A stretch of DNA of 64,000 nucleotides, from sequence record PZ445527.1; one strand, written 5' to 3'. Both the position numbers and the translations under genes were made by a program. The stretch is from a phage. Below the pieces are notes generated by a model that was not told the origin of the DNA, searched no databases, and saw only the letters and a list, made by a program, of their open reading frames with translations. Shown in pieces: positions 44,545 to 62,783 of this stretch (position 1 is its first letter; each line of letters opens with the position of its first letter).

Positions 44545-44590
44545 ATGAACTTATTATACAGAATTTTGAGGTTTAAAGCAACTGAATTTT
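44545..44590 (-). promoter_or_regulatory. early sigma70-like promoter
   Basis: on - strand TGTATAAT (reverse complement of 44553-44560), A/T-rich upstream, then AATTAATGAGAGAGG RBS region. Confidence 0.45.
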
Positions 44591-44598
44591 TTAATTAC

Positions 44599-45030
44599 TT
44601 ACCAATCGTTAACAACACCAGAGAACTCAGAAGCAAAAACTTTCTCAAATTTTTCTGCAATTTCAGGATGATCCTTACAGATCAACTCAATACATGCTTC
44701 TGGAGTCATTCCTTCGTCTTCAGGATCACCATAATACTTGTCCCAAAGATCGTCAGGGATGATGTGCTCTGCCAAATCTTGGAAAGAGATTAGCTGATAA
44801 CGTTCTGCTTCCTCAGGGATAAGGATTTCACAAAGATCTTTATCTATATCACTACGGTAATCAGCAATTAGCAGGGCATTGCAAGCATGACACTCCCAAA
44901 CCATCAAGCGTTCAGAAATAGAATTAGACTTATCCTGAATGTAGGACTGAAACAGGGTTCGAAAAGTAGCTTTAACTTGTTCAAACTTATCTGCTGCTGC
45001 AAAAACTAGAGCTTTATCAACTTTGTTCAT
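44599..45030 (-). CDS. hypothetical protein
   Basis: 143 aa ORF. Confidence 0.5.
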   Translation of the reverse strand: MNKVDKALVFAAADKFEQVKATFRTLFQSYIQDKSNSISERLMVWECHACNALLIADYRSDIDKDLCEILIPEEAERYQLISFQDLAEHIIPDDLWDKYYGDPEDEGMTPEACIELICKDHPEIAEKFEKVFASEFSGVVNDW

Positions 45031-45057
45031 TTTGTTTCCTTCTCATCAATTTATAAA

Positions 45058-45100
45058 GTAATTATACAGAAACTTAGGCATTTTAGCAAATAAAACTTTT
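45058..45100 (-). promoter_or_regulatory. early sigma70-like promoter
   Basis: - strand TTTGCT-18nt-TGTATAAT (reverse complement of 45061-45068); downstream TTTATAAATTGATGAGAAGGAAACAAAATG. Confidence 0.45.
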
Positions 45101-45197
45101 AATTAAAATGCCTAATCCTGTACTAATAGCAATACAAATGATTATAAGTATTGCTACTGCTTGTATGACTCGTTTAATGATAACCTCAGCTATATAC

Positions 45198-45719
45198 TTA
45201 GACATTTAACATCCAGCTAGTTTTATCATGGGAAGTATACTTACCACTCATGATGTCTTCCAGGCGTACTGGTGATTTTGCATACTCTACACAAACGTTA
45301 ATATAACGAGGGTCTCCCATTAACTCAAAGTGAGTATGCCCATGTAAGTTCTTTTTACCCCTCAGCTCCTCTGGATGTACTGGAGCATGGGAAAGCCAAA
45401 AGTTTTTATACTTAACTAGGGATTGTACATTATCTACTACTCCTACTAAGTCTTTGAAAGATAACCCTTCTCGTTCTAAGTCGTGGTTCCCCAAAACTAA
45501 TATAGTTCTAACATTGCTAAAGAGTTTTTCGAACTTTTCCAAACCATTTCTAGATACAAATGCATCTCCTAAAATATAAAATACTGTACGCTTATCTTTC
45601 ATGGATGTAATAGTATCCATAATAAATTCATCATGCTCTTCCATAGTAGAGAAGATTGGTCTGAATTTAGTAATATTTGCATGTCCTAAATGGAGATCAC
45701 TCCAAAAGCAAACTTTCAT
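45198..45719 (-). CDS. metallophosphoesterase (calcineurin-like)
   Basis: DLHLGH, GDAF, GNHD, GHTH motifs. Confidence 0.7.
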   Translation of the reverse strand: MKVCFWSDLHLGHANITKFRPIFSTMEEHDEFIMDTITSMKDKRTVFYILGDAFVSRNGLEKFEKLFSNVRTILVLGNHDLEREGLSFKDLVGVVDNVQSLVKYKNFWLSHAPVHPEELRGKKNLHGHTHFELMGDPRYINVCVEYAKSPVRLEDIMSGKYTSHDKTSWMLNV

Positions 45720-46594
45720 TAAAGGATCCTCTGTACACCACAGCTATTATTTTTGTCAGTGGTAAATGCTGTGATTTTGCCAGTTTCATCATTAACCTGC
45801 GCAACCGTCAACTGCCCGTTGAAAACACCGCCAGTATCAAGATAAACACGGTTTTTATAAAGAAGTGGGTAAGGTACTCCAGTATGCCCGTGAAACACGA
45901 AATCTATCCCTTTAACTTCTGGCACTTCCACCATATATTCTTCTTTAAATCCTGCATAACGCTGGAAATAGGGGTGTTCCTCAACATTTTTAGACAAGTG
46001 GAAGCCTATTTCTTGGATTACATCTCGATCCCATAAATATGGTTCAACATGGTATCCAGGAGGGTCATGTGGGTCTTCCTTAGCTGCTTCTACTTGTGCA
46101 ATAAGGTTATCCCATACTGGGGTTTCAACTTCGTTACCACATTCTTTGTACATAAAAGGTACACCACCATGAACAACACCATATTTCTTGCCACGATGTT
46201 TAACAGTTAGGAATACTGGCATTTTTTCAGCCATGTCTTCGGCAATATTTTTAATGGTATCTGCATCTAGTTCATTCATAGCCCACATACCACCGTTATA
46301 CATCCAGTTAGCCCAATCTCCTACAATCATAAACTGGTCATGATTTCCACGAACGCTACAGAAACGTGGATTATACAGGAATTTGGCTAAAACTTGTAGG
46401 TTCTGCGTGCCTCGATCAATTAAATCTCCCACGCATACAACGCAATCTTTCTTGCCGTTATAGCCAGCTAATTGTAGTGCATCTTCTAGCAAATCGTTGC
46501 ATCCATGAATATCACCAACAAAGAATAAGTTAACATCATCAGGTACTACTAGTGTTTTATGTACATTAAATTCTTTTTTCATAATTATTCCCAA
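45719..46594 (-). CDS. Ser/Thr protein phosphatase (PPP family)
   Basis: GDIHG, GDLIDRG, GNHD motifs. Confidence 0.75.
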   Translation of the reverse strand: MGIIMKKEFNVHKTLVVPDDVNLFFVGDIHGCNDLLEDALQLAGYNGKKDCVVCVGDLIDRGTQNLQVLAKFLYNPRFCSVRGNHDQFMIVGDWANWMYNGGMWAMNELDADTIKNIAEDMAEKMPVFLTVKHRGKKYGVVHGGVPFMYKECGNEVETPVWDNLIAQVEAAKEDPHDPPGYHVEPYLWDRDVIQEIGFHLSKNVEEHPYFQRYAGFKEEYMVEVPEVKGIDFVFHGHTGVPYPLLYKNRVYLDTGGVFNGQLTVAQVNDETGKITAFTTDKNNSCGVQRIL

Positions 46595-46830
46595 ATAACA
46601 TTTAAAATAGTTGTACCATAGTTATTCGATAGTTTGAGAGTATAACCCTCTTTATTGAGGGCTTTTATAGCCTCATAACTAATTTCGTCACGATTAAGCT
46701 GTACAAAGGAACCTCCAATCTCGACAGAAGATACTATCCTCCGCTTAACCCATCTATACGTTTTCTTTCGGCTCTTAAGGAGTGCAGCTCTATTAACCCT
46801 AGCTAAATGTTTTGCTTGCTCTGCTAACAT
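46585..46830 (-). CDS. hypothetical protein
   Basis: 81 aa ORF; extended -10 (TGGTATAAT on - strand, 46858-46866) upstream. Confidence 0.45.
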   Translation of the reverse strand: MLAEQAKHLARVNRAALLKSRKKTYRWVKRRIVSSVEIGGSFVQLNRDEISYEAIKALNKEGYTLKLSNNYGTTILNVIWE

Positions 46831-46927
46831 TTAATCCTCCTATCAATCTATATAAATATTATACCAAAATTTTTAGCAAAAAGCAAGTAAAATAAAAGCC
46901 TGATCCGCTAAGATCAGGCTTGGTTTA

Positions 46928-47224
46928 TTAATCCTCTGGATTATCATCCAGGAAATTTTTAATAGCTTCGTGCATAGTTTCCTTACGAAGCTGACGTCCA
47001 ATCAAAATATGGTTAGCTTCTACTCGACCATTAGGTAAGCGATCTGCCAGAACTACTACAGGTACTTGACGTACACCAAATTTCTGCATTAATTCTGTAT
47101 TATCAGTCTCTTTATGGACTTCCAAGTTATAGTCATTGACTACTTTATCAAATACTGGCTCGAAAAGAGCACAAGGACGACACGTGGAACCTTTTAATAA
47201 ATAAATAATTTTGCTCATATACAC
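46928..47224 (-). CDS. thioredoxin/glutaredoxin-like protein
   Basis: CRPC redox motif, about 98 aa. Confidence 0.55.
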   Translation of the reverse strand: MYMSKIIYLLKGSTCRPCALFEPVFDKVVNDYNLEVHKETDNTELMQKFGVRQVPVVVLADRLPNGRVEANHILIGRQLRKETMHEAIKNFLDDNPED

Positions 47225-47231
47225 TCCTATT

Positions 47232-47771
47232 TTACTTGTTAAGCTCTTCTAAATCTGGTATATATCCAAGAAACTCCTCAATTAAAGCGTACTCCCCAGC
47301 AATCTCCTGTCTAGACTTATTCGCTAAGTCTACTGCCAGAGCTAAGTCTTCATAATTGAAGGTTCCTTTCATACGTTTTCGGCCTGTTTCATCCGTAATT
47401 TGAACTCTCCATTTCTGCCTATCTTTAGCCCACATAACATTTGCATATCCAGATTTGGACTTTCTATGCTTCTTATTACGACAATTTTGTGGTTTAGATG
47501 CAGAACGTAAGTTTTTCCATCGGTTATTTTGTGGATTTCTATCTATGTGATCCACAAATTCAGGTATATATCCTTCCATATATAGGAAGGCCCATCTATG
47601 GGCTCCCTGCCTCTCCCCTTCCACCATTATCATTATGTAATCATTGTTATATAGAGTTCCAGCTTCCATTCCCCTCTTTACATACTGATTATTACCATCT
47701 ATCTTCCAGGTAAATATCCCGGTTTCTGGATTATATTCTAGTAATTCTTTTAGTCTTTCTTGAGTGATCAC
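47232..47771 (-). CDS. HNH homing endonuclease
   Basis: HNH motif EFVDHIDRNPQNNRWKNLR; AP2-like C-terminal region. Confidence 0.75.
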   Translation of the reverse strand: MITQERLKELLEYNPETGIFTWKIDGNNQYVKRGMEAGTLYNNDYIMIMVEGERQGAHRWAFLYMEGYIPEFVDHIDRNPQNNRWKNLRSASKPQNCRNKKHRKSKSGYANVMWAKDRQKWRVQITDETGRKRMKGTFNYEDLALAVDLANKSRQEIAGEYALIEEFLGYIPDLEELNK

Positions 47772-48172
47772 AATTTATTAATGGCCTCTAAGAAGTTTTT
47801 CATGCACTTAACAGTTGCGGTGCTGAGGTCTAGAGTAGTTCCTAAACATTCTGTTAATGCTGCCTGGTAAGGCGCTTTTAAACGCCCTTCAGGGACTTCT
47901 ACCTTTTTGTAGGTTTTATTCTTTACTTTATCTAGCATAGCTTCAAGAACATTGAGAGGCAACTTCGCACCCTCAATATTCACACCAAGCATTTCGGTCA
48001 GCATGTTATTAAGATCAATACGAGTAAGTTTCTTGCCTTTAGACATAGTAGTTCCTGCCTTCTTCTCAAGTTTTTTACGCTCTGGTGAATCGAGGTCACG
48101 TAATGCGATGTTCAACTCATATGGAGCCATGTTATAATGTTCCGCCATTTGAGTGTAGAAACGATCAGACAT
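47768..48172 (-). CDS. hypothetical protein
   Basis: 134 aa ORF. Confidence 0.5.
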   Translation of the reverse strand: MSDRFYTQMAEHYNMAPYELNIALRDLDSPERKKLEKKAGTTMSKGKKLTRIDLNNMLTEMLGVNIEGAKLPLNVLEAMLDKVKNKTYKKVEVPEGRLKAPYQAALTECLGTTLDLSTATVKCMKNFLEAINKL

Positions 48173-48247
48173 AGTATATACCTCTCTTAACTAATTTATG
48201 TATATATTATATAATAACTAGGGCTAAAAGTCAACTACTTTTTTATC

Positions 48248-48664
48248 TTAATCTACTGCATGTATAAATCTTTTCCTAACTAGATACATAGTTATTGGGT
48301 AAATTGAGTACATAAGTATAGGGGAGAAAAGGGTGAAATACGCTGTAACTCCCCCAGCTAACATCAAAGGTATTAATGCTAGAGTAAGGGCCATAAGAAT
48401 CATACCGAATGAAACAGCCAAAGCTATGGATATAGGATTCTCTAGTTCCATCCATAACCAACAATATTTCGTATCTCTGTGGCAATTGCATTTACAAACG
48501 CCGAATAAACCCATAATTATATACTCTAGTCCGTGAATAACCTTTATTAATAAGCTATTTCGGGTAGTTAATGCAATGATAGTAAAGACTATCATTAAAA
48601 CGAATACTACTAGACTTATTTTCCAAATACCTAGCAGCATCATAGTGAATAGTTCTGCAAACAT
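48248..48664 (-). CDS. integral membrane protein
   Basis: 138 aa, about 4 TM helices. Confidence 0.5.
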   Translation of the reverse strand: MFAELFTMMLLGIWKISLVVFVLMIVFTIIALTTRNSLLIKVIHGLEYIIMGLFGVCKCNCHRDTKYCWLWMELENPISIALAVSFGMILMALTLALIPLMLAGGVTAYFTLFSPILMYSIYPITMYLVRKRFIHAVD

Positions 48665-48703
48665 GGCTTTCTCCTATCTTCAAAAGTTATTAAAGCCCCC
48701 TTT

Positions 48704-48730
48704 GCCTAAAAAGGCGGGAGTATTCCCGCC
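48704..48730 (-). terminator. rho-independent terminator after endolysin gene
   Basis: hairpin GGCGGGA-gtat-TCCCGCC followed on - strand by TTTTTAGG. Confidence 0.55.
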
Positions 48731-48739
48731 GTATCTTAC

Positions 48740-49153
48740 TTAAATCAATTCTATATGTGGGCCATCAAAAGTACCACGTTGGATTTCATCCTTATAACTT
48801 CCGTTCTGGTTCCAATCACCACCCCATCTAATCTTTACCCCTAGCTCTTCTGCTGCCTTAAAGAAGGCATCTGCCACTAATTTGAATGATTCTAAATCAT
48901 TCCAATCAATCTTCCCATTTTTAAGAGGAGCAAAGTCAACGGCCAGCCCTTGTACGTGTTTTGACTTGCTCGGGTCTTTTAAAAACGAGGTTCCATTCTT
49001 AATATTTTGGGCGCTTTGTTCTAAGGAACGTAATCCTTCTGTAATTGTAAAATCATATGGGCTTAATTCTAAAGCTCTATGAGTTACTCTTACTAAATCT
49101 GGATGAACACCCTTTAATCTATCTAAACTTCTTTTACTAAATTTAAAACTCAT
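48740..49153 (-). CDS. endolysin, L-alanyl-D-glutamate peptidase (T5 endolysin-like)
   Basis: 137 aa; H...D...H zinc-peptidase signature (HVQGLAVDF ... GDWNQ...HIE); adjacent to holin. Confidence 0.8.
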   Translation of the reverse strand: MSFKFSKRSLDRLKGVHPDLVRVTHRALELSPYDFTITEGLRSLEQSAQNIKNGTSFLKDPSKSKHVQGLAVDFAPLKNGKIDWNDLESFKLVADAFFKAAEELGVKIRWGGDWNQNGSYKDEIQRGTFDGPHIELI

Positions 49154-49860
49154 ATTGACCTACCTAAAGACCTCTGTTGTGGGGAACAGAGCTTTGCTAA
49201 ATATTCCTTGAACTGTTCAGAATCAGCTGTATCTACCGGATTATCTTTCCAAGCAATACCAATGTACCCAGCATAGATATTTTTTAGATTGAAGTATGGA
49301 CAAGTGTATATGTAATTAAAAGTAATGTTTTTAAACGCAGGTATATTTAACCCCATATATTTATTTACTCTTACACTTAAATCCGATGCGTAGTTAAAGC
49401 CCTCTAAATGACGTCTGTATAATTCAGACGTTTTATTTACCGCTTTATCGGCCAAGTCAGCCCTATCTAATTGCGCATTACTTTCCCATGCAATAATATT
49501 GGAATAATCATTGATAGCATCTGGTTTATACTTGACTACAAAAACAGCATCTGCACCCGTCTGAGAGAAGAGAACCATGCTCTTTTCCCTCGCCACATTA
49601 GGGAAGTTATCTATCCTCTGGGTTTGTAAATCCTGTAAAACTGCAGACGTGGAAAAAGTCTTTAAGAATGACATCACTTCACTAGTATTACTAACGAATA
49701 AGAAAATAATGACAGCAACTAAGATAGTTAGCAGACGTTTAAGAAGCGATGCTGGGTCTTTCGCTTCTTGGAGCAGTACTGTTAATAATTGTAAGAACTT
49801 TTCCAATTTGTAACCTCCTCTAACCAGTACCATTATACTAATTTTGGAGGAAAATTTCAA
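49150..49860 (-). CDS. holin (T5-type)
   Basis: 236 aa with single TM helix (LLTILVAVIIFLFV); immediately upstream of endolysin with overlapping stop/start. Confidence 0.65.
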   Translation of the reverse strand: MKFSSKISIMVLVRGGYKLEKFLQLLTVLLQEAKDPASLLKRLLTILVAVIIFLFVSNTSEVMSFLKTFSTSAVLQDLQTQRIDNFPNVAREKSMVLFSQTGADAVFVVKYKPDAINDYSNIIAWESNAQLDRADLADKAVNKTSELYRRHLEGFNYASDLSVRVNKYMGLNIPAFKNITFNYIYTCPYFNLKNIYAGYIGIAWKDNPVDTADSEQFKEYLAKLCSPQQRSLGRSI

Positions 49861-49962
49861 TGGGTTTTTAAATGTTATACTTGGAGCACAAAATTATGTC
49901 GTTGTCAAGAAGAATTTTAGATAAAAGAAAAGCCAGGGTACTTAACCCTGGCTTAAAATTAC

Positions 49963-50562
49963 TTACTCTTCGTTGCGCTCCTCGGATTGAGGTAACTGCG
50001 CTTTATTATATTGCTCAGATCGATATTTTGCCAAGATTTCAATACGTTTATGGATTTCCTTGCTATCTAGATAGATATTTTTGTTGTCTTTTACCATCTC
50101 GTCGATTTCATCTATTGAGAAGAACGGATAGTAGACATCTAGCATCATATCTTCTACGAACTTGTTGTAAGATTCATAGGCTTTCTTGATTTCTTGACCT
50201 TTCTCACAGAACCCGCCAGAGAACGTGTGTCCCATTAGCGTAGCATGTGGATGTACTACCCATCCATGACAAGATAGGAAAATTGTGCAGTAAGCAGAAG
50301 CACTAGGACCAATCAGGTGTCCTATAACTGTTCCACGGCAATTAGCAATTAAGTTAGATAACTGTGCAGCGGTATCAACATAGCCACCAGGGCCATTAAT
50401 CATCAGATTAATTTCATCGTCCTCATTTGCCTGCATAAGTACCATTGATAAATCACGGTATTCATCCGGCGGACCAAGTTCTTCATCAAAGAAAAAGGTA
50501 TACTCGTTAGATTGGCGAATAGAGTGGAACAGGTTAGTCTTTTCTTCTTTTTTATTAGTCAT
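49963..50562 (-). CDS. ClpP-like serine peptidase
   Basis: INGPGGYV and GPSASA motifs resembling the ClpP family. Confidence 0.5.
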   Translation of the reverse strand: MTNKKEEKTNLFHSIRQSNEYTFFFDEELGPPDEYRDLSMVLMQANEDDEINLMINGPGGYVDTAAQLSNLIANCRGTVIGHLIGPSASAYCTIFLSCHGWVVHPHATLMGHTFSGGFCEKGQEIKKAYESYNKFVEDMMLDVYYPFFSIDEIDEMVKDNKNIYLDSKEIHKRIEILAKYRSEQYNKAQLPQSEERNEE

Positions 50563-50574
50563 AGCGATCCTTGA

Positions 50575-51327
50575 TTATCCAACTAGTGGTTCTAGCTCTA
50601 AGTCACAGAAGTTATACACTTCTAGTTTAAGGTTATTGATACCATCGAATTTATTAACTAATTCATGAGTAATATATTTTGCAGGAATACCACTTTCAGA
50701 TGGATGATCTGATTTAATAGTGAACTTCTGCTCAGCGGGCACTACATTTACTAGTAAAGAATCCATATCTAAATGGTTTGTTTCTCTGAGTAACTCTCCT
50801 TCATTGGGGAATCTCACATCTGTTATTACGGCGACATCTGGGTCGTCTTTAGCGATGGATTGCTCCAGAATTATGAGCCAAATGCGTTCATGTACTAGCT
50901 GCCTTCCTAGCTCTGTTCCTACGAGCTGTAACATTTTTCTCGGAGAAATAAATAAACTATAAAGTCCATCTTCTTTATTCTCTGAGATAAGTTGTTGAGG
51001 ATTAAGATATTTTTCCTCAAAAATAGGCCAAACGTACGAGAAGTCCTCAAACTTATCGATACCATATTTAAACCATACGTCTCTAGCTCGCTCCAATTGA
51101 TATTGTGTGACCGTAAACCATTGGTCAATCTCTTTCCCCCTGCGCTCTCCTAGAAACTCTGGAGTTACCCCGAGGATTACGGATGCAAGCTCATAAACTG
51201 GTTTAGCAAAACTGTAACGACGTGGTAAACACGTTGGATACGTGTCATTACACCAATCGATAATTAATTTTGCAACGGTATCTTTTCCTGCACCTGCCTC
51301 GCCATGTAAACCTACTAATACTGACAT
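50575..51327 (-). CDS. dnk: deoxynucleoside monophosphate kinase
   Basis: P-loop GLHGEAGAGKDT similar to T4-type dNMP kinase; 250 aa. Confidence 0.65.
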   Translation of the reverse strand: MSVLVGLHGEAGAGKDTVAKLIIDWCNDTYPTCLPRRYSFAKPVYELASVILGVTPEFLGERRGKEIDQWFTVTQYQLERARDVWFKYGIDKFEDFSYVWPIFEEKYLNPQQLISENKEDGLYSLFISPRKMLQLVGTELGRQLVHERIWLIILEQSIAKDDPDVAVITDVRFPNEGELLRETNHLDMDSLLVNVVPAEQKFTIKSDHPSESGIPAKYITHELVNKFDGINNLKLEVYNFCDLELEPLVG

Positions 51328-51680
51328 TAATCTTTCCTATTGTTAATGGGTGGATAGTAAATTAAGCAACGTTTTTCTTGTAAATCTTGGCGATAGAAGC
51401 AAACCATACTAGTCAATCGTGAGATATATGAATATTCTGCCTCCCGACATTTTGCTAACATATTCCAATCTTTATATGGTACAACAACTACTACACCATC
51501 TTCGCCATTTGTAGCTAATTTCTTTTCGAATTTGAAATCAAAGCTACAAGGCTGAAGTCCTTTAGGCCAATCTACATGAGCTGTTGGTAGCTCATGTGTA
51601 GGTTCTGGCTTTACTTCTTGTGCACAGCCTGTGATTGTGATTGCGGCTGTGAGCAGTATTCCACACTTCCAGTTAAACAT
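51327..51680 (-). CDS. candidate o-spanin (outer-membrane lipoprotein)
   Basis: signal peptide with lipobox ITGC; overlaps 3' end of upstream i-spanin-like gene in a different frame. Confidence 0.5.
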   Translation of the reverse strand: MFNWKCGILLTAAITITGCAQEVKPEPTHELPTAHVDWPKGLQPCSFDFKFEKKLATNGEDGVVVVVPYKDWNMLAKCREAEYSYISRLTSMVCFYRQDLQEKRCLIYYPPINNRKD

Positions 51681-52054
51681 GCTAATCTTTCCTCGAACTC
51701 CTTACTCTGCTTTTTAGCAATTAATGTAACCAATCCAGGCTTTGCAGCTATAATATCTTGACGACTAAGTGCTTTATCAAGCTGGGAGATCTTCTTATCA
51801 AGATCTTGTTGGGAAATATTATGGAAAGTGAAATATTGATTCATACGTGTTTCACGTTGTTCACTTTCAACTTTAATCTTGTTTAAGGAAGTTTCTAGAG
51901 TAGAGATCTTTTTAGTAGCTACTGCAAGATCACCTGATAGAGTCTCAACCTTATTAACTAAGTGATAAGCACCGAATCCGATGCCTATCGCTAGACCTGC
52001 TCCCAGGATATACCATTTACCTTGCCATAGAGAACTAATAAAGTTTTTTATCAT
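51611..52054 (-). CDS. candidate i-spanin (Rz-like)
   Basis: N-terminal TM helix then coiled-coil; 147 aa. Confidence 0.5.
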   Translation of the reverse strand: MIKNFISSLWQGKWYILGAGLAIGIGFGAYHLVNKVETLSGDLAVATKKISTLETSLNKIKVESEQRETRMNQYFTFHNISQQDLDKKISQLDKALSRQDIIAAKPGLVTLIAKKQSKEFEERLACLTGSVEYCSQPQSQSQAVHKK

Positions 52055-52731
52055 CTTTTCATATTCCTGAATGACGTAACCGTATCAAATCCATGTGCTG
52101 CTAGGCGGTCTTTATCAGAAGTGGTAATAATATCTGGTTCTCCTGTTCCAAGTACACCCCAAATATACTGCTCGATTCTTTGGTGCAGCCGATATAGGTT
52201 AGGTTCCACACTCTGCCACGGAATACCTGATAGGTGTAGACGCGGATTAGTTATAACCTTGAAGTATTTATTGTTATCTTTATCATTTGGAACTAATGAA
52301 TCTAGAACTGCTAACGGTACTCTTAACTCAGTTAAGGCTTCTTCAGCTTTGGGGGTAACTTCTTCTTGCCATGCTAAGATAGACTCTTTTGGCTTCCCCC
52401 TATTTATGTCTAGCAAAGAAAACCCTGTTGACCATCCCTTCTCCTCCAAAATTTCTAACGCCTCGTCCAAACTGAAGGTTTTTACTTGGGTATCCAGTAC
52501 ATCAATGTGGTATAACCAGTAAATCTCCCCAGCTAGGAAGAAAGGCAAAATTTTAAAGTAGCCAATCTTTCCCTCAATACGAGCAATCCTACGTTCTTGC
52601 ATGATCATATAGTTGTCATCATCTGGGGCTTTTATTGTTAGCTCTTCAGTTTTACGTTCCCAAACGCGATCGGGGTCGAACAAACTGTTCTGCAAATCAT
52701 ACACATCTACGAATTTAGAGATGATTCTCAT
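52051..52731 (-). CDS. hypothetical protein
   Basis: 226 aa ORF. Confidence 0.5.
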   Translation of the reverse strand: MRIISKFVDVYDLQNSLFDPDRVWERKTEELTIKAPDDDNYMIMQERRIARIEGKIGYFKILPFFLAGEIYWLYHIDVLDTQVKTFSLDEALEILEEKGWSTGFSLLDINRGKPKESILAWQEEVTPKAEEALTELRVPLAVLDSLVPNDKDNNKYFKVITNPRLHLSGIPWQSVEPNLYRLHQRIEQYIWGVLGTGEPDIITTSDKDRLAAHGFDTVTSFRNMKR

Positions 52732-52885
52732 ATTTAATCCTCTTGCCTCAATCTATGAATATATTATACAAAAGTTTGGGCATCTATGCAACTAAAATTT
52801 TATTACAAAAATAGCCCAGTCGCAAAAGTGCAGGCTGGGCTTTGTCATTATTTGCTTTTGCTAGTAAGTTGACTTAGTGTCAATC

Positions 52886-54315: not shown

Positions 54316-54694
54316 AACGACAAGTAAAAGAACTAGAGCTATTAGTACGTTGAGTAGTTATCTCACCGCGTTTGCTAATGGTAATAGCTGGTGTAGAGAA
54401 ATTTTTGTTAGTGTATACCTCTACTTTACCATTACGTTCCCTAACATCACGAACTTTACCATACTCGGTAATAATACCATTCTGTTGTACCCTAACATTC
54501 CCATTTTTCATAAAAACTTTGGTAGATGCTAGAGAACCGAAACTAACTGCTGAAACCATCAGTGCAATAATAAACTTATTCATCATGGTCTTCCTCATTG
54601 CAGTCACGGCATACATCATAATCATTGAAGGAATGTTCGTGGGCTTCACACCACCAAGAACAAGAATCACAGAGGAATATTTCGGTTTTCTCAA
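54284..54694 (-). CDS. putative secreted protein
   Basis: 136 aa with N-terminal signal-like hydrophobic segment. Confidence 0.45.
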   Translation of the reverse strand: MRKPKYSSVILVLGGVKPTNIPSMIMMYAVTAMRKTMMNKFIIALMVSAVSFGSLASTKVFMKNGNVRVQQNGIITEYGKVRDVRERNGKVEVYTNKNFSTPAITISKRGEITTQRTNSSSSFTCRYDCDFEGEDE

Positions 54695-54857
54695 GTGCTT
54701 GGCCTAAAAGATCATCAGCTTCCTCAGCAGTAATCTTCAATCCACATACATCTGCCACACGTTCTTTAATTAAGCGACCTGCCTCATGGTAAGACATACA
54801 GGTTCCAACAACACTATGCTCGACAACGTGAATAGCACAGTCTAGACGAGTTTTCAT
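54576..54857 (-). CDS. Cys-rich small protein
   Basis: 93 aa; CDSCSWWC and CRDC motifs; promoter-like TTGTTATAAT upstream on - strand. Confidence 0.45.
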   Translation of the reverse strand: MKTRLDCAIHVVEHSVVGTCMSYHEAGRLIKERVADVCGLKITAEEADDLLGQALEKTEIFLCDSCSWWCEAHEHSFNDYDVCRDCNEEDHDE

Positions 54858-54933
54858 TTCAAACCTCTCTCATCAATTTATAAATATATTATAACAAGAA
54901 AAGAGAGGTTTAGCAAATGAATTATTTCAGAAA

Positions 54934-55281: not shown

Positions 55282-55402
55282 ATTACCTCCATTAAGTCTT
55301 TTAAACTAACCTAATGTGGATGAATTTTGTTATACATATATTATGTACCTTTATACAGAAAAACCCCAGACTACTTATTCAATAGCTGGGGTTTGTTATT
55401 AA

Positions 55403-56164: not shown

Positions 56165-56529
56165 TAGATCTCCCTGATGTTAGAATTTGGCTCAGCTTTT
56201 TGTTAACCCAGAAGCAAGATAAAAACTGGAAGGCAGGCTTGCTTTTCTCTTAACCACTAGGCTACTTTTGGGTGCTAGCATTCCGGTGAGATTGATGGTC
56301 TCGGTTAAGAAGAAAAACACGGGACTTCTGTTTTAACGTCGTGCTCCCGGATTGATGCGACTACGTGATTGCTCGCGCTAAGACAATGGCTATCTAAAGT
56401 CTTAGCTTCTACATTTATACTCCTGGATAGCATGGAGTTGCAGTCTACTTCCTGCTGTCACGCCCGGTCATTTATAGAATGTGGACTCTCTTCTCAGCAA
56501 GTTCTGGCACTATGGCCTGATCTTCTGTT

Positions 56530-56604
56530 TGGTAGTTAGTAGTGGAATCGAACCAGGTTCCACGGTTTACAAGACCGTTGCATCGCCAGCAATGCTTTAA
56601 GAGC
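56530..56604 (-). tRNA. tRNA-Thr(UGU)-like element with unpaired acceptor stem
   Basis: CCA end, T-loop TTCGATT, perfect anticodon arm ACGGT-CTTGTAA-ACCGT, D-arm GCAT-TGCTGGCG-ATGC; the 5' seven nucleotides do not pair with the 3' acceptor strand; abuts HNH gene stop. Confidence 0.35.
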
Positions 56605-58177: not shown

Positions 58178-58406
58178 AATTGAAAACTCGCAGGGTTAGC
58201 GAAACCATCCTCAATTAGCATGTTCTAGAATACTAATCAAGTTATCTCCTATTGCACGCAGCTCAAGACGAGTACGAATTTTCAATTGTGGCGGCTCTCA
58301 GAAACTCTTCTATTCTAGCCTCAGAAGCTTACCCCCGAACGCATGTCGGGAAAGTCTTTCCAAGCGCATCAAATAGCACCGTTACACTTTGAGCCATTGA
58401 TGTATC

Positions 58407-58476
58407 AAGGAATAGAAGGACTTGAACCTTCATGAGTTAGACCATTTAACTCAACCGCTTTTTAGGGTATATTTCT
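58407..58476 (-). ncRNA. aberrant tRNA-like element
   Basis: canonical T-arm GAAGG-TTCAAGT-CCTTC and acceptor-like ends, but only one internal hairpin (TGAGTTA-AATGGTC-TAACTCA); no separate anticodon arm found. Confidence 0.3.
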
Positions 58477-58543
58477 AGGAGTGGATGTTCCTAGTAAACC
58501 TATTCGGCAGTCCCGTCTACCAATTCCGGCATATTCCAAGATT

Positions 58544-58816: not shown

Positions 58817-59185
58817 AAATTCTTTAATTTACTAAGGCTATTAGCTCGGCGTAACTACAGCACCTTCGCTTCAAGCGGAAGGAACCGCGTCATCTCGCAA
58901 ACCCAATACACTATTCAGTTGCCGCTGAATCTAGTGGACTAATCTAGAACTTCTCCCGAGTCGTAGGGATCGTGCTTTTTGGCAGCCAGTCCTAGGTCGA
59001 GCTAATACCTTAGTGAATTATGATGAGGATTTCTCCCATATCAATTTATATAAATATTATAACAAGAAATTAATCATCAAGCAATTGAGTTTTTCTTGAA
59101 ATTGGTAGCGGGTTCCAGTACTGCCCTGGACTTACTTAGCTTATGAGACTAAGAAGAACTCTATGCCTTCCACCCGCAATTGTTT

Positions 59186-59309
59186 GGTTATTCTAGACAG
59201 GATTCGAACCTGTTATCACTTGTGCGGACTTACGAGAACCATTCTTTCACTCGAATCGAACGAGCTTCTGCCCTAGCCAAGCTGGTTTCCCCATCAACCA
59301 CGCTAGAAT
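59186..59309 (-). ncRNA. about 121-nt tRNA-like element containing two T-arm-like hairpins
   Basis: perfect 7-bp acceptor-like pairing ATTCTAG/CTAGAAT enclosing D-arm-like TGGT-TGATGGGGAA-ACCA and T-arms GCTCG-TTCGATT-CGAGT and ACAGG-TTCGAAT-CCTGT. Confidence 0.3.
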
Positions 59310-59431
59310 GTTTGATTGTTTTCAGTGCAAGAGTCCGAGTCTTGGACACGACCGTTTCGCAAGTACATAGGCAGCTTATCATGAGTCAGCACTTCCGAAT
59401 TGCTAGCCCCGTGTTCTGCACTGAAATTTTA

Positions 59432-59779
59432 TTAGTTTAACCGTAAAGTATTATCTAATTCACCATTAATTGTTCGGCATTCCTCTGGAATTGCTGGTGT
59501 GGCCTTGTATTCCCACCACTCAGCACCATCATATTCCCCACGTTCTAGCCAAGTTCCGTCGGCAAACCATACATTACCATAAAGTAATTGTCCACCGTAT
59601 CCAGAATCATACTCAAAGTCTAGGTTATCAAGAAAATCCTCAATATCTTCTTCTGTATAGCCTAAAGGTAATACCCAAACTTTTTTATCCCCATAATACC
59701 CGAATTCTATTTTAATACACTTAATTTTAGAATTGGTATTTTTTAAGGCAAGTAACAACTCTTCTTTAGCATTACGCAT
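59432..59779 (-). CDS. hypothetical protein
   Basis: 115 aa ORF. Confidence 0.5.
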   Translation of the reverse strand: MRNAKEELLLALKNTNSKIKCIKIEFGYYGDKKVWVLPLGYTEEDIEDFLDNLDFEYDSGYGGQLLYGNVWFADGTWLERGEYDGAEWWEYKATPAIPEECRTINGELDNTLRLN

Positions 59780-60178: not shown

Positions 60179-60261
60179 TGGCGGGCCGTGTAGGATTCGA
60201 ACCTACGTTGTCTTTCGACACGGATTAACAATCCGCCGCCAAACCGCTTGGCTAACGACCC
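60179..60261 (-). tRNA. tRNA-Asn(GUU) with unusually long variable region
   Basis: acceptor GGGTCGT/ACGGCCC, D-arm GCCA-AGCGGTT-TGGC, anticodon arm GCGGA-TTGTTAA-TCCGT, 13-nt variable region GTCGAAAGACAAC, perfect T-arm, discriminator G, CCA encoded. Confidence 0.65.
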
Positions 60262-60416
60262 TAAAAAATTTATATTGCTGACTAGGGTTTTCACCTAGAC
60301 GGAGTTAGCACCGTAGCGTGTAGCGGCATACCTCTCCAAACCGTGCCTCATCTTTCAATTACGGAGACAGTGTTCCTACGCGTGCCTGAATTGATTTAAC
60401 AATTCTTTCAGCAAAT

Positions 60417-60492
60417 TGGACGACCGCATGAGGATTGAACTCACATAAAAAGGATTTGCAATCCTTCGCCTAAGCCATTCAGCCAACGGTCG
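60417..60492 (-). tRNA. tRNA-Cys(GCA)
   Basis: acceptor CGACCGT/GCGGTCG, anticodon arm AAGGA-TTGCAAA-TCCTT, T-loop TTCAATC, CCA encoded. Confidence 0.82.
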
Positions 60493-60670
60493 ATTTATCT
60501 TGTTTTTCGAGATCTTCAAACTCTAAATCATTGAAGTTCCCTAGAGTACGGGTATAGAACCCATCCCCTGCGTCATAGCCTGATTTACCACAATCACACA
60601 TTTTAAATTCGCGCAGGTGTGTGAAAACATGTTCAGAACCACAACACTTAAATCTAACTAATCGTTTCAT
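60479..60670 (-). CDS. zinc-finger protein
   Basis: 63 aa; CCGSEH...CDCG motifs; 3' end overlaps tRNA-Cys by about 14 nt. Confidence 0.4.
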   Translation of the reverse strand: MKRLVRFKCCGSEHVFTHLREFKMCDCGKSGYDAGDGFYTRTLGNFNDLEFEDLEKQDKSTVG

Positions 60671-61009
60671 TAGCTTCTCCAGTTCAATTTATGTAATTAT
60701 TATATAGAACTTTTGGGAACTAAGCAACTACATTTTTTAAGAATTTGATGCCTTTCTTTTTCTTCTTATATTTCCACGTTAATGGATTCTGTCGATTATG
60801 AACGCTTGAGATCTTTGTCTCGTCAAAGTTCTTCAATATCATGTAATCACAAGATAATTGTTCTAGTGGAATGTGATCACCGTCAAAAGCGTATACATAA
60901 GGCTGTTGACTAGCACGATAATGATAGACTTTGTTAATTCTACGTTTCAGCGACTTATCCGCGCAGTAAATAAAGAAGTTTTAAGGGTGCATCAGCATCT
61001 CCTTCAATT

Positions 61010-61093
61010 TGGTGCATCGTGCTGGATTTGAACCACCAACCCCGAAGGGCACGGATTTACAGACCGCTGCAATAGCCATTCTGCCAACGATGC
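61010..61093 (-). tRNA. tRNA-Tyr(GUA)
   Basis: acceptor GCATCGT/ACGATGC, D-arm GCAG/TTGC, anticodon loop CTGTAAA, long variable arm GCCC-ttc-GGGG, discriminator A, CCA encoded. Confidence 0.82.
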
Positions 61094-61143
61094 ACATTTA
61101 AAAGTATTCAAATACTAGTTTAAACACTTTTAAATATGTTTCC

Positions 61144-61160
61144 AAATTAGATAACTATTA
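61144..61160 (-). promoter_or_regulatory. extended -10 promoter element upstream of tRNA-Tyr
   Basis: - strand TGGTATAAT (reverse complement of 61147-61155). Confidence 0.4.
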
Positions 61161-61221
61161 TACCAAGTTTTAAGGCACTGAGCAAGTCAGATTTTGAAGA
61201 ACTTGCTCAGTGCTGTATTAG

Positions 61222-61506
61222 TTAGTCGAACTTAGGAGTGACAGATAAGGAGAACGGAAGTTCAAAAACTTCTTCACCCTCATTACTAACGGTAACTACA
61301 CGACCTTTAAGTTCAGACATTAAAATATCAATATCAGCTTTTGCATCTGGAGCCATGCCAGCTTCAATACATTTAGCTTTAACTTCCGGTAAAAGCTCTA
61401 CGTTATAGAGATAGAGCCACTCAATCTCACCTTCCCAGTCTTCCCAGTCTTCCCAGGATTTGCAGATTGCACTTTCAATACCAGTTGCTACAACACGATT
61501 TTGCAT
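61222..61506 (-). CDS. hypothetical acidic protein
   Basis: 94 aa ORF; repeat WEDWEDWEGEIEW. Confidence 0.5.
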   Translation of the reverse strand: MQNRVVATGIESAICKSWEDWEDWEGEIEWLYLYNVELLPEVKAKCIEAGMAPDAKADIDILMSELKGRVVTVSNEGEEVFELPFSLSVTPKFD

Positions 61507-61539
61507 TCGTTAACTCCTTCATCAATTTATATAACTATT

Positions 61540-61580
61540 ATACCAGAAATTTAAAGCAAAAGGCAAGTACATTTTTAAAA
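61540..61580 (-). promoter_or_regulatory. early sigma70-like promoter
   Basis: - strand TGGTATAAT (reverse complement of 61543-61551) then ATATAAATTGATGAAGGAG RBS region. Confidence 0.45.
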
Positions 61581-61596
61581 ATTCTGTTTGGAGGAG

Positions 61597-61803
61597 CTAA
61601 ACTCCAGATTCTTCTGCCAAGTCTAGACTAATAAGAGTTATAGCCATAATTGCTGCACCGTGTTCTTTTTCTCCGGTGTTTTTAGCAGAGTCTATAATAT
61701 CCTTAATCTGTTCGTAATAACTTTTTACTTCTTGTTCAATGCCTGCCTCGGCTATCATGCCTTTAGTCATGAGTCGTTGCATGGTAATTTCAGTATTAGC
61801 CAT
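61597..61803 (-). CDS. hypothetical protein
   Basis: 68 aa ORF. Confidence 0.45.
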   Translation of the reverse strand: MANTEITMQRLMTKGMIAEAGIEQEVKSYYEQIKDIIDSAKNTGEKEHGAAIMAITLISLDLAEESGV

Positions 61804-61978
61804 GTTGTTTCTCCAGTTTCATTTTTAATAGTTTACAAATGAAATCAACGTCTTCATCCGTGCCTAGATCTCTATCTTCAAGGGTTGCCTTGAAATTTTT
61901 TGTTAGTTCCATAAGAATAACTTCCCTGGAACGACGTGTTGGCGGGGGTGGATGTCTATACATCTTATTTCCTTAATT

Positions 61979-62053
61979 TGGTGGGTCGGAGGAGAATCTA
62001 ACTCCTACTCGTTAGCTTATGAGGCCACCGCTTTAACTTTAAGCTACCGACCC
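61979..62053 (-). tRNA. tRNA-Met or Ile2 (anticodon CAU)
   Basis: acceptor GGGTCGG/CCGACCC perfect, D-arm GCTT/AAGC, anticodon loop CTCATAA, T-arm AGGAG-TTAGATT-CTCCT (atypical T-loop), CCA encoded. Confidence 0.65.
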
Positions 62054-62059
62054 TATGTT

Positions 62060-62148
62060 TGGCGGAAGAAGTGGGAATCGAACCCACAAGGCTATATTTC
62101 AAACCGACAGATTAGCAATCTGCTGCAATACCGTTATGCTATTCTTCC
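62060..62148 (-). tRNA. tRNA-Ser(GCU)
   Basis: acceptor GGAAGAA/TTCTTCC perfect, anticodon arm GCAGA-TTGCTAA-TCTGT, long variable arm, T-arm GTGGG-TTCGATT-CCCAC, CCA encoded. Confidence 0.8.
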
Positions 62149-62168
62149 GAATTTATAAATATATTATA

Positions 62169-62687
62169 TTAGAAATTTAGCTTCATAGCAAGAAAATTTT
62201 TCAAGTTTTCGGTAGACATCTCATCCACATCTACAGGAGAAACAAATCCATTTAATTGTCTAGCAAATTTTTTACCAGCAGGATCATTATCCCCAACAGC
62301 TACCAATTTAAAAGGTAGTAATTTCAATTGCTTTAATAGCGCTTTTCCTGGAGAAGAACCCAACATTGCCAAGGCTGGATAACCAGCGTTATGTAACGCA
62401 ACTGCCTTAAATACAGATTCAGCAATCAATACCACTTTTTCATCTCCATTGAGAGTTTCTAGTCCCCATACACACTGTGTAGTAGAATAAGTAAAATATC
62501 TAGCTTCAAAGGGGCACTTACCATGACCTTTTGGAGCAGAAGGATTATAAGTCTGATAGCCTCTCAACATCCCAGAGAAGTCATACAATGGGACTGTTAG
62601 CCATCCTTCCGGGCTTAACCAGCAATGATATTTATCTGTATCAAACCCTCTAGATAAGAGATGTTCTGTTAGTTCATCAACAGTCAT
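62169..62687 (-). CDS. Toprim-like domain protein
   Basis: 172 aa; LIAESVFKA (conserved Glu) and GDNDPAGKKFA (DxD) resemble a Toprim fold. Confidence 0.4.
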   Translation of the reverse strand: MTVDELTEHLLSRGFDTDKYHCWLSPEGWLTVPLYDFSGMLRGYQTYNPSAPKGHGKCPFEARYFTYSTTQCVWGLETLNGDEKVVLIAESVFKAVALHNAGYPALAMLGSSPGKALLKQLKLLPFKLVAVGDNDPAGKKFARQLNGFVSPVDVDEMSTENLKNFLAMKLNF

Positions 62688-62783
62688 ATTTGATCCCCTA
62701 GTTAGTTGTATAAATACATTATACAGAAAAGCCCTGCGCTCTCCAGTGAACGCAGGGCTTACTTCGAATATTACGTGTGGGTA

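What the first reader, a model, noticed from the sequence alone, without database searches (positions are those of the whole stretch)
44545..62740. Recurrent early-promoter module TG(G/T)TATAAT followed by ATTTATA-AATTGATG upstream of many - strand genes
At least a dozen early genes are preceded, in the gene-sense strand, by an extended -10 (TGGTATAAT, TGTATAAT or TTGTTATAAT) and, 10-15 nt later, a conserved ATAAATTGAT(G/A) element merging into the RBS (seen near 44553, 45061, 46858, 48200, 52760, 54889, 55320, 59059, 60690, 61147, 61543, 62150, 62715). The second conserved element goes beyond a plain sigma70 promoter and may be a shared 5'-UTR regulatory or RNase-processing site.
Basis: seen in the sequence. 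Interest (0 to 1): 0.42.

Follow-up and report, generated by a model that had tools for sequence, protein, structure and literature searches.

The report
T5-type early promoters, already known
The repeated motif is the well-known strong early promoter of phage T5 and its relatives; its second conserved block is the transcription start and first transcribed bases, so the finding is real but already described.

Summary
The window is a T5-like phage (Tequintavirus), 91-95% identical to known phages. The recurrent module is real. Two further copies in range are degenerate.

The second block always begins exactly 6 nt after TATAAT. By homology with T5 promoter N25, where TATAATAGATTCAT is -12..+2, it is +1..+9: the transcription start and initial transcribed sequence. 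Its distance to the start codon varies (21-27 nt). Three copies drive tRNA or stable-RNA genes with no RBS.

The copies are one-to-one orthologues of features annotated in T5 (T5P8-T5P20, T5P41; "repeat b" and "repeat c") and of named BF23 promoters (P13b-P15c). The same consensus, including a "+1 region TAAATT", was published for phage AKFV33. It recurs in Vibrio, Klebsiella and Aeromonas relatives.

Published N25 experiments show that the native initial transcribed sequence promotes promoter escape about 10-fold. I found no RNA structure, no Rfam family and no consistent dyad.

Verdict: already known, low interest.

The parts
44538..44593 (-). Promoter module, orthologue of T5P8. -35 TTGCTT 44581-44576; -10 TATAAT 44558-44553; discriminator AAGTTC; +1 at 44546 (ATAAATTAAT). 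The 26-nt leader runs to the ATG at 44520 (ORF 44242-44520).
45046..45101 (-). Promoter module, orthologue of T5P9, named 'promoter P-F 30' in NC_005859. -35 TTGCTA 45089-45084; -10 45066-45061; +1 at 45054 (ATAAATTGAT). The 24-nt leader runs to ORF 44599-45030.
46843..46898 (-). Promoter module, orthologue of T5P10. -35 TTGCTT 46886-46881; TGn-extended -10 46863-46858; +1 at 46851 (ATAGATTGAT). The 21-nt leader runs to ORF 46585-46830. It sits directly after the terminator hairpin at 46921-46896.
48191..48246 (-). Promoter module, orthologue of T5P11. -35 TTGACT 48234-48229; -10 48211-48206; +1 at 48199 (ATAAATTAGT). The 27-nt leader runs to ORF 47768-48172.
52748..52803 (-). Promoter module, orthologue of T5P13. 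-35 TTGCAT 52791-52786; -10 52768-52763; +1 at 52756 (ATAGATTGAG). The 25-nt leader runs to ORF 52051-52731.
54873..54928 (-). Promoter module, orthologue of T5P14 and of T5 'repeat b copy 1'. -35 TTGCTA 54916-54911; TGn-extended -10 54893-54888; +1 at 54881 (ATAAATTGAT). The 24-nt leader runs to ORF 54576-54857.
59041..59096 (-). Promoter module, orthologue of BF23 'promoter P13b' and T5 'repeat b copy 3'. -35 TTGCTT 59084-59079; TGn-extended -10 59061-56; +1 at 59049 (ATAAATTGAT). It has no RBS. It drives a structured stable RNA (the RNA 2H homologue) followed by tRNA-Ala, tRNA-Leu and tRNA-Ser.
60684..60739 (-). Promoter module, orthologue of T5P18 and BF23 P14b. -35 TTGCTT 60727-60722; -10 60704-60699; +1 at 60692 (ATAAATTGAA). 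The 22-nt leader runs to ORF 60479-60670.
61142..61197 (-). Degenerate promoter module, orthologue of T5P19 and BF23 promoter 14a. -35 TTGCTC; TGn-extended -10 61162-61157; +1 region CTAATTTGG (6/9 matches). The 57-nt leader runs to tRNA-Tyr, with no RBS.
61522..61577 (-). Promoter module, orthologue of T5P20 and BF23 P15c. -35 TTGCCT with an 18-nt spacer; TGn-extended -10 61542-61537; +1 at 61530 (ATAAATTGAT). The 24-nt leader runs to ORF 61222-61506.
62148..62203 (-). Promoter module, orthologue of BF23 P15b. -35 TTGCTA 62191-62186; -10 62168-62163; +1 at 62156 (ATAAATTC). Only 8 nt separate +1 from the 5' end of tRNA-Ser(gct), and there is no RBS.
62703..62758 (-). Degenerate copy at the position of T5 'repeat c copy 2'. 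TGTATAAT 62725-62718; +1 region ATACAACTA (5/9 matches); poor -35 that overlaps terminator hairpin 62760-62729. The 24-nt leader runs to ORF 62169-62687 (Toprim, 'primase'-like).
28953..29008 (+). The 25-nt leader runs to a lipoprotein-like ORF at 29025-29291.
55314..55369 (-). It is a promoter-like TATAAC box without the second block (0/9 matches) and is not a member of the motif family.
49817..49872 (-). Early promoter, orthologue of T5P12 (TTGAAA-17-TATAAT), upstream of the holin/endolysin genes. It lacks the block (2/9 matches), which shows that the block is not obligatory for early-region promoters.

Best explanation
Each copy is a T5-type early promoter read by the host sigma70 RNA polymerase. 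Its parts are an A-tract near -43 (UP-like), a -35 box TTGCT(T/A), a 17-nt spacer, a -10 box TATAAT, a 6-nt AT-rich discriminator (consensus ATATTT or AGTTAT), and then the conserved block ATAAATTGA.

The block is not a separate element. It is the transcription start (A at +1, preceded by a pyrimidine) plus the first 9 transcribed bases, known as the initial transcribed sequence or 'downstream region'. These promoters bind polymerase very tightly and are limited at the escape step. The native AT- and purine-rich initial transcribed sequence lets the polymerase clear the promoter efficiently. It also gives a short, unstructured AU-rich leader that runs straight into the Shine-Dalgarno sequence, or into a tRNA or stable-RNA gene.

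Shown here: the motif, its fixed register to the -10 box, its orthology to annotated and named T5/BF23 promoters, its conservation across the family, its enrichment among promoters annotated as early in T5, and the absence of RNA structure.

Shown by others on the homologous T5 N25 promoter: the +1 position and the roughly 10-fold effect of the initial transcribed sequence on productive transcription.

Inferred: that the same start site and the same escape function apply to each copy in this phage.
For: Enrichment and register:
- 12 matches against 0.18 expected.
- The block begins exactly 6 nt after TATAAT in all copies. Leader length to the start codon varies from 21 to 27 nt, and three copies precede tRNA or stable-RNA genes.
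- All 12 PWM hits for the block scoring >=12.4 are attached to a TATAAT at that spacing.

Register of +1: PMC7472727 states that TATAATAGATTCAT is -12..+2 of T5 N25. The N25 sequence I recalled matches T5 at 100% and is annotated 'promoter' and 'repeat c copy 6'.

Orthology: the copies correspond to T5P8-T5P20 and T5P41 and to 'repeat b' and 'repeat c' of AY587007, to 'promoter P-F 30' of NC_005859, and to BF23 P15b, P15c, 14a, P14b and P13b.

Published consensus: for T5-like phage AKFV33 it is TTGCTw, TATAATA, a -43 AAAAATT and a '+1 region (TAAATT)' (PMC3326045).

Function: changing +3..+20 of N25 lowers full-length RNA about 10-fold and lengthens the escape half-life from 3 to about 45 min with purified RNA polymerase (PMC12464699). 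The effect of the initial transcribed sequence on promoter strength in vivo exceeds 10-fold (PMC5961368, citing Kammerer 1986).

Constraint: the same +1..+9 consensus appears in Vibrio phage Brizo, Klebsiella phage Roth49 and Aeromonas phage AhP_Mru1. It carries 0.64-1.01 bits per position against 0.30-0.55 in the spacer.
Against: No transcription start has been mapped in this phage; the +1 assignment rests on homology and spacing.

The N25 experiments swapped +3..+20 as a block, so which bases matter is unknown. General studies found no universal motif for fast escape (PMC5961368), so escape efficiency alone does not obviously explain why this exact 9-mer is kept across genera.

The block is enriched among promoters annotated as early in T5: 20 of 34 early, 1 of 5 pre-early and 0 of 3 late. 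That hints at an additional class-specific regulatory role.

Some early promoters work without it (49837 and 55334).
Confidence: 0.82

Rival explanations
1. The discriminator plus the +1 block is mainly a class-specific regulatory determinant. A phage factor, such as the RNA-polymerase-binding protein gpT5.026 or a partner, selectively weakens open complexes at promoters carrying this sequence. This would shut early genes off at the early-to-late switch. This rival is compatible with the best explanation as an added function.
For: In T5 the block is present in 20 of 34 promoters annotated as early, 1 of 5 pre-early and 0 of 3 late. PMC7472727 reports three relevant things. gpT5.026 lowers RNA polymerase affinity for the -5/+2 non-template segment of N25 about 8-fold. 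Early transcripts rise about 5-fold in its absence. Early and late promoters differ mainly in the discriminator (ATATT). The window encodes a protein 100% identical to gpT5.026 at 42484-42942.
Against: [quoted passage not shown] The published effect concerns -5/+2, not +3..+9. The late (3) and pre-early (5) promoter samples are tiny. There is no consistent dyad or other operator-like symmetry across copies.
Confidence: 0.18
2. The block works at the RNA level. It would be a shared 5'-terminal leader element for RNase E processing or stability control, or an AU-rich ribosome/S1-binding enhancer.
For: The block would form the 5' end of every transcript. It is AU-rich and predicted to be unpaired in all nine leaders, which suits S1 or RNase E access. 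AA|AUU at +3..+7 fits the loose RNase E preference RN|WUU; that preference is from my own knowledge and was not tested.
Against: Three copies precede tRNA or stable-RNA genes with no RBS, one of them only 8 nt before the tRNA. Fold z-scores range from -1.9 to +1.05, so there is no structure beyond chance. There is no Rfam family. The block never occurs away from a -10 box, for example inside operons before internal genes. The known roughly 10-fold effect of this region was obtained with purified RNA polymerase alone.
Confidence: 0.07
3. TAAATT at +2..+7 is a -10-like element (TAnnnT) that re-binds sigma70 region 2. It would cause a promoter-proximal pause near +15..+20, as at lambda PR' and lacUV5.
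For: The most invariant positions of the block are T+2 (12/12), A+3 (12/12) and T+7 (11/12), which are the key -10 positions. A T-G step at +7/+8 resembles the YG pause motif discussed in PMC5961368 and PMC12464699.
Against: A full-text search for T5 N25 together with promoter-proximal pausing returned only the two escape papers, and neither reports such a pause on native N25. Native N25 is described as the variant that escapes most easily, with escape at +11. AT-rich sequence matches TAnnnT easily.
Confidence: 0.06
4. The similarity is a by-product of AT-rich sequence, or of recent neutral duplication of one promoter cassette, and the second block has no function.
For: The genome is about 38% GC. 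T5 annotators listed these stretches simply as 'repeat b' and 'repeat c'.
Against: 12 matches against 0.18 expected in dinucleotide-preserving shuffles. Spacers between the boxes have diverged (0.3 bits per position) while the block is kept (0.7-1.0). The same block appears in Vibrio, Klebsiella and Aeromonas phages of other genera and subfamilies.
Confidence: 0.01

Closest known systems
Bacteriophage T5 early promoters: the N25/T5P33 family, 'putative early promoter T5P8-T5P38 and T5P41' and 'repeat b' / 'repeat c' in AY587007. Primary source is Gentz & Bujard 1985, J Bacteriol 164:70, as cited in PMC7472727.
   Same: Same architecture element by element, and one-to-one positional orthology. 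For example, T5P14 is ...TTGCTAAACCTCTCTTTTCTTGTTATAATATTTATATAAATTGATGAGGGAGG, and the window's 54893 copy is ...TTGCTAAACCTCTCTTTTCTTGTTATAATATATTTATAAATTGATGAGAGAGG.
   Different: Only point substitutions. The copy at 62723 has lost the block that T5 keeps there ('repeat c copy 2').
Named promoters of the BF23 tRNA gene region (AJ604530): P15b, P15c, 14a, P14b and P13b.
   Same: Same positions relative to tRNA-Ser/Met, tRNA-Tyr, tRNA-Cys and the RNA 2H stable-RNA gene.
   Different: The gene content of the tRNA cluster differs in places, for example homing endonucleases and some tRNAs.
Promoter consensus of T5-like phage AKFV33 (PMC3326045).
   Same: TTGCTw for the -35, TATAATA for the -10, a 17-18 nt spacer, a -43 AAAAATT and a '+1 region (TAAATT)'.
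   Different: That paper calls the +1 region 'AT-richness' and does not discuss the TTGA extension or the fixed register.
Initial transcribed sequence / 'downstream region' control of promoter escape. Sources: Kammerer et al. 1986, EMBO J 5:2995 (cited in PMC12464699 and PMC5961368); Hsu laboratory work on N25 variants; Heyduk & Heyduk 2018.
   Same: The same sequence region (+1..+20) of the same promoter family. It is shown to set the abortive/productive ratio and the escape half-life.
   Different: The experiments were done on N25 only, with block substitutions, and not on the copies in this window.
Sigma70-dependent promoter-proximal pause elements of lambda PR' and lacUV5 (from my own knowledge).
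   Same: A -10-like TAnnnT hexamer within the first transcribed bases.
   Different: No pause has been reported for native N25. This is a resemblance only and was not tested.

Membership tests
sigma70-dependent bacterial promoter | A -35 hexamer resembling TTGACA | tested here: met
   TTGC(T/C/A)N in 10 of the 12 in-range copies, TTGACT at 48211, and no TTG only at 62723. TTG is 11/12 at each position.
sigma70-dependent bacterial promoter | A -10 hexamer TATAAT, 16-18 nt from the -35 | tested here: met
   Perfect TATAAT in all 13 copies. The spacer is 17 nt in 11, 18 nt in one and 16 nt in the degenerate 62723 copy.
sigma70-dependent bacterial promoter | Transcription actually starts about 7 nt downstream of the -10 box | not testable with these tools
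   Inferred from the N25 numbering (-12..+2 = TATAATAGATTCAT; PMC7472727). There are no 5'-end data for this phage.
T5-type early promoter (T5P series, 'repeat b' / 'repeat c') | An A-rich block near -43 | tested here: met
   AAAA at 9-10 of 12 copies, 30-33 nt upstream of TATAAT. This matches the '-43 region AAAAATT' of PMC3326045.
T5-type early promoter (T5P series, 'repeat b' / 'repeat c') | An AT-rich discriminator of the ATATT type | tested here: met
   Discriminators are ATATTT, ATTTAT, AGTTAT, ATATTC, ATATAC and similar. T at the fourth position is 12/12. The early-class consensus ATATT is given in PMC7472727.
T5-type early promoter (T5P series, 'repeat b' / 'repeat c') | Conserved +1 region ATAAATT(T)GA | tested here: met
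   >=7/9 matches in 11 copies (10 in range plus 28988) and 5-6/9 in two degenerate copies. The same holds for 20 of 34 T5 early promoters.
T5-type early promoter (T5P series, 'repeat b' / 'repeat c') | Positional orthology to annotated T5/BF23 early promoters in an early-gene region | tested here: met
Extended -10 (TGn) promoter | TG at -15/-14, that is TGnTATAAT | tested here: inconclusive
   Present in 5 of the 12 in-range copies (6 of 13 counting 28988). Four copies have TGTATAAT, which is the wrong register, and three have no TG. It is not a defining trait of the module.
Cis-regulatory 5'-UTR RNA element or RNase-processing site | A conserved RNA secondary structure, or a match to a known RNA family | tested here: not met
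   Nine leaders give z-scores from -1.9 to +1.05, with the block unpaired in all. Rfam finds only tRNAs.
Cis-regulatory 5'-UTR RNA element or RNase-processing site | Association with mRNA leaders and RBS regardless of the promoter | tested here: not met
   The block is never found away from a TATAAT, and it is present before tRNA and stable-RNA genes.
Operator for a dimeric DNA-binding regulator | Dyad symmetry with a fixed centre across copies | tested here: not met
   The longest palindromes have centres ranging from -7/-6 to +7/+8 among the copies.

The most novel reading that the evidence does not exclude
The exact discriminator plus +1..+9 sequence, rather than mere AT-richness, is the class tag of early promoters. 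Phage-modified RNA polymerase, carrying gpT5.026 (which is encoded 100% identical in this window) or an unknown partner, would use it to switch early promoters off selectively at the early-to-late transition. A related possibility is that the -10-like TAAATT at +2..+7 imposes a sigma70-dependent pause. Either reading would make a 40-year-old 'downstream homology' a true regulatory element.
Probability: 0.15. Interest if true: 0.45.

Novelty: already known. Interest (0 to 1): 0.1.

Why it matters
It matters little for discovery. The module is the classic T5 early promoter. The N25 family, which underlies common 'T5 promoter' expression vectors (from my own knowledge), belongs to it. The start and downstream block are already noted in the T5 and BF23 annotations and in the AKFV33 genome paper.

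The practical value is in annotation.
- The copies mark 12 early transcription units in this phage, including those for the tRNAs and a stable RNA.
- They fix likely transcript 5' ends.
- They help pick true start codons, for example 44520 rather than 44538.

One question remains open: why this exact 9-mer is kept across Demerecviridae that infect Escherichia, Klebsiella, Vibrio and Aeromonas, and whether it takes part in early-gene shut-off.

Tried and rejected
(1) I scanned for the second block alone with a PWM. At a low threshold it is not enriched (39 hits against about 30 expected). It is therefore not a free-standing element.

(2) The generic sigma70 scan is uninformative in this AT-rich DNA: 57 sites found against 56 expected. 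Only the composite motif discriminates.

(3) I tested for RNA structure in the leaders and found none. Rfam at the gathering threshold and at E<=1 finds nothing at the modules.

(4) I tested for operator-like dyad symmetry and found no common centre.

(5) I tried to read the primary papers, Gentz & Bujard 1985 (PMC214212), Kammerer et al. 1986 (PMC1167252) and Hsu et al. 2006 (PMC2528282). They are not held. Their content is cited only through later open-access papers and from my own memory.

(6) The 35427(+) motif hit is rejected as a promoter copy. It has no -35 box and lies at the edge of an AT-rich tandem-repeat zone.

(7) A full-text search for sigma-dependent pausing on T5 N25 returned nothing specific.

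(8) Loci L003, L004 and L007 did not reach the Python sandbox. I worked around this with the DNA search, DNA alignment and get_sequence.

Full report
IDENTITY OF THE WINDOW. Window 44400-52400 is 91-95% identical to T5-like phages such as Shigella phage SHSML-45, Salmonella phage Shivani and Escherichia phage DT57C. Positions 1-25000 match the T5 late tail-gene region at about 92%. Positions 25001-44500 match the receptor-binding protein, A1, dmp and terminase region of relatives. The window therefore runs from late genes, through pb5/llp and the pre-early block, into the early region.

THE OBSERVATION. I anchored the candidate sites on TATAAT and printed them in register. This gives a clean family: an A-tract, then TTGCT(T/A), a 17-nt spacer, TATAAT, six AT-rich bases, and ATAAATTGA(T)GAGAGG. 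The pattern TATAATNNNTNYATARATT with up to 1 mismatch occurs 12 times, against 0.18 +/- 0.41 expected from dinucleotide-preserving shuffles; no shuffle reached 12.

One listed site (about 55320, TATAAC at 55334) lacks the second block entirely. Two hits lie outside the range on the + strand. The one at 28988 is a complete module in front of a lipoprotein-like ORF. The one at 35427 has no -35 box and sits at the edge of an AT-rich tandem-repeat zone.

The column profile shows block-wise conservation. The A-tract is 9-10 of 12. TTGC is 10-11 of 12. TATAAT is 12 of 12. Within the second block, T+2 and A+3 are 12 of 12 and A+1, A+5, T+6 and T+7 are 11 of 12. The spacer carries only about 0.3 bits per position.

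The 'extended -10' is canonical (TGnTATAAT) in only 5 of the 12 in-range copies. Four have TGTATAAT, which is the wrong register, and three have no TG.

WHAT THE SECOND BLOCK IS TIED TO. The block begins exactly 6 nt after TATAAT in every copy. Its distance to the start codon varies from 21 to 27 nt. Three copies have no RBS at all:
- 62168 sits 8 nt before tRNA-Ser.
- 61162 sits 57 nt before tRNA-Tyr.
- 59061 sits 233 nt before tRNA-Ala.

A PWM of the block alone is not enriched at low stringency (39 hits against about 30 expected). All 12 hits scoring >=12.4 follow a TATAAT at the fixed spacing. Of the 18 sites in the window with TTG at the -35 position and a perfect TATAAT, 12 carry >=5/7 of ATAAATT at that position and 11 carry >=6/7. 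The block is therefore part of the promoter and not of the translation signal.

REGISTER. PMC7472727 states that TATAATAGATTCAT corresponds to -12..+2 of the T5 N25 non-template strand. The A that lies 7 nt after TATAAT is therefore +1, and ATAAATTGA is +1..+9. The N25 sequence I recalled from memory matches T5 at 100%. It is annotated 'promoter' and 'repeat c copy 6' in AY587007.

ALREADY ANNOTATED AND PUBLISHED. AY587007 annotates 'putative early promoter T5P6...T5P38 and T5P41', together with repeat families b and c. I extracted these features. T5P8, 9, 10, 11, 13, 14, 18, 19 and 20 are near-identical orthologues of the window copies at 44558, 45066, 46863, 48211, 52768, 54893, 60704, 61162 and 61542. 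T5P41, the llp promoter, corresponds to 28988(+).

NC_005859 names the orthologue of the 45066 copy 'promoter P-F 30'. The curated BF23 tRNA-region record AJ604530 names P15b (62168), P15c (61542), 14a (61162), P14b (60704) and P13b (59061). The AKFV33 genome paper gives the consensus 'TTGCTw (-35)... TATAATA (-10)... [quoted passage not shown]

FAMILY-WIDE CONSERVATION. Without using the motif, I collected every TTG-N20-TATAAT site in roughly 40-kb early regions of three divergent Demerecviridae:
- Vibrio phage Brizo (Ermolyevavirinae): 17 sites.
- Klebsiella phage Roth49: 16 sites against 0.5 expected.
- Aeromonas phage AhP_Mru1 (Shenzhenvirus): 10 sites against 0.37 expected.

The consensus at +1..+9 is ATAAATTGA, ATAAATTAA and ATAAATTCG respectively. 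In these genomes 13 of 17, 10 of 16 and 5 of 10 sites have >=6/7 of ATAAATT at +1. The information content at +1..+9 is 0.64-1.01 bits per position, against 0.30-0.55 in the spacer. This rules out chance and neutral duplication, and it shows selection on the block.

CLASS SPECIFICITY. Among T5's annotated promoters the block (>=6/7) is present in 20 of 34 early, with 5 more at 5/7. It is present in 1 of 5 pre-early and 0 of 3 late promoters. The window's late promoter at 11849(-) is the orthologue of T5P39 and has TATAAT-ATTGTT-ATTAAAGAGGAG instead. Some early promoters lack the block (49837 = T5P12 and 55334 = T5P15).

MECHANISM. For N25, replacing +3..+20 (the 'anti' initial transcribed sequence) cuts full-length RNA about 10-fold, expands abortive products and lengthens the escape half-life from 3 to about 45 min with purified polymerase. 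N25 forms extremely stable open complexes and is rate-limited at escape, which occurs at +11 (PMC12464699). PMC5961368 credits Kammerer et al. 1986 with the first demonstration that the initial transcribed sequence changes promoter strength in vivo more than 10-fold. It also notes that no universal motif for this region is known.

My best explanation is therefore that the block is the start site plus the initial transcribed sequence of a very tight-binding promoter, kept because it allows efficient clearance. As a by-product it supplies a short unstructured AU-rich leader.

RIVALS.
Nine leaders fold no better than shuffles (z from -1.9 to +1.05), and the block is unpaired in all of them. Rfam finds only tRNAs. 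The block also precedes tRNA and stable-RNA genes. This rival is not supported.
- Operator for a dimeric regulator. Palindrome centres differ among copies. Not supported.
- Class-specific regulatory tag. PMC7472727 shows that gpT5.026 binds the RNA polymerase beta subunit and lowers affinity for -5/+2 of N25 about 8-fold. Its loss raises early transcripts and lowers late transcripts about 5-fold each. The authors point to the early-class discriminator ATATT. The window encodes an identical gpT5.026 at 42484-42942. This remains possible as an added function.
- Sigma70-dependent pause through the -10-like TAAATT at +2..+7. This is suggested only by which positions are invariant. I found no literature support.

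VERDICT. The 'separate 5'-UTR or RNase element' part is not supported. The feature is the known T5-type early promoter, including its known downstream homology, so novelty is 'already known' and interest is low.

Noticed in passing
window 58817-59049 (- strand): The 233 nt between promoter 59061 and tRNA-Ala fold far better than shuffles (MFE -76.2 against -57.0 +/- 4.7 kcal/mol, z = -4.07, 0 of 200 shuffles) and match no Rfam family. BF23 record AJ604530 annotates the homologous stretch as 'RNA 2H, stable RNA with unknown functions'. It is conserved in more than 400 phage records and its function is still unknown.
   Followed up: partly
window 58180-58540, 59190-59440, 56200-56600 and 60280-60400 (- strand): These are other non-coding gaps in the tRNA cluster. 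Sub-threshold tRNA-like hits lie at 58407-58476 (22.2 bits) and 59189-59239 (20.6 bits). They probably correspond to the 'tRNA-like RNA' and stable RNA genes (RNA1, RNA2, RNA3, RNAI, RNAIII, RNAIV) annotated in BF23.
   Followed up: partly
window 42484-42942 (- strand): This 153-aa ORF is 100% identical to T5 gpT5.026, the RNA-polymerase beta-subunit-binding protein implicated in the early-to-late transcription switch (PMC7472727).
   Followed up: yes
window 35440-35610 (+ strand): An array of AT-rich tandem repeats of about 30 nt (ATAATAACTATAAAAATAATC(A/G)CCATTATA) lies in a non-coding zone between the pre-early block and the early genes. It may correspond to the repeat-rich region at the first-step/second-step DNA transfer boundary that is annotated in T5.
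   Followed up: no
window 27152-29291: A 595-aa ORF on the - strand (27152-28939) is paired divergently with an 88-aa lipoprotein-like ORF on the + strand (29025-29291, MKKFVTALVAAVMLSGC...). The arrangement matches the T5 pb5/llp pair. The llp-like gene has its own early-type promoter module at 28988.
   Followed up: partly
window 44520-44538 (and other copies at about +9): Several copies contain an ATG inside the block (ATTGATGAGAGAGG, or AATTAATGAGAG in the 44558 copy). It lies upstream of the Shine-Dalgarno sequence and is sometimes in frame with the gene. A mechanical ORF call starts the 44242 gene at 44538, whereas the SD-spaced start is 44520. This is a likely source of start-codon mis-annotation.
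   Followed up: partly
window 11849 (- strand): A late promoter orthologous to T5P39 reads TTGATA-17-TATAAT-ATTGTT-ATTAAAGAGGAGAAATTAACTATG. From memory, its leader/RBS is the same string as the synthetic 'RBSII' of pDS/pQE expression vectors.
   Followed up: no
window 62729-62760, 49930-49954, 48713-48730, 46896-46921 (- strand): Strong intrinsic-terminator hairpins sit immediately upstream of promoter modules (or overlap them), so the terminator's T-tail doubles as the promoter's upstream AT-rich region. T5 'repeat a' covers such a junction.
   Followed up: no
whole window: Late tail genes, pb5/llp, the pre-early block and the early genes are contiguous. This implies that the assembly has the long terminal repeat collapsed or the genome circularly permuted relative to the T5 reference.
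   Followed up: partly
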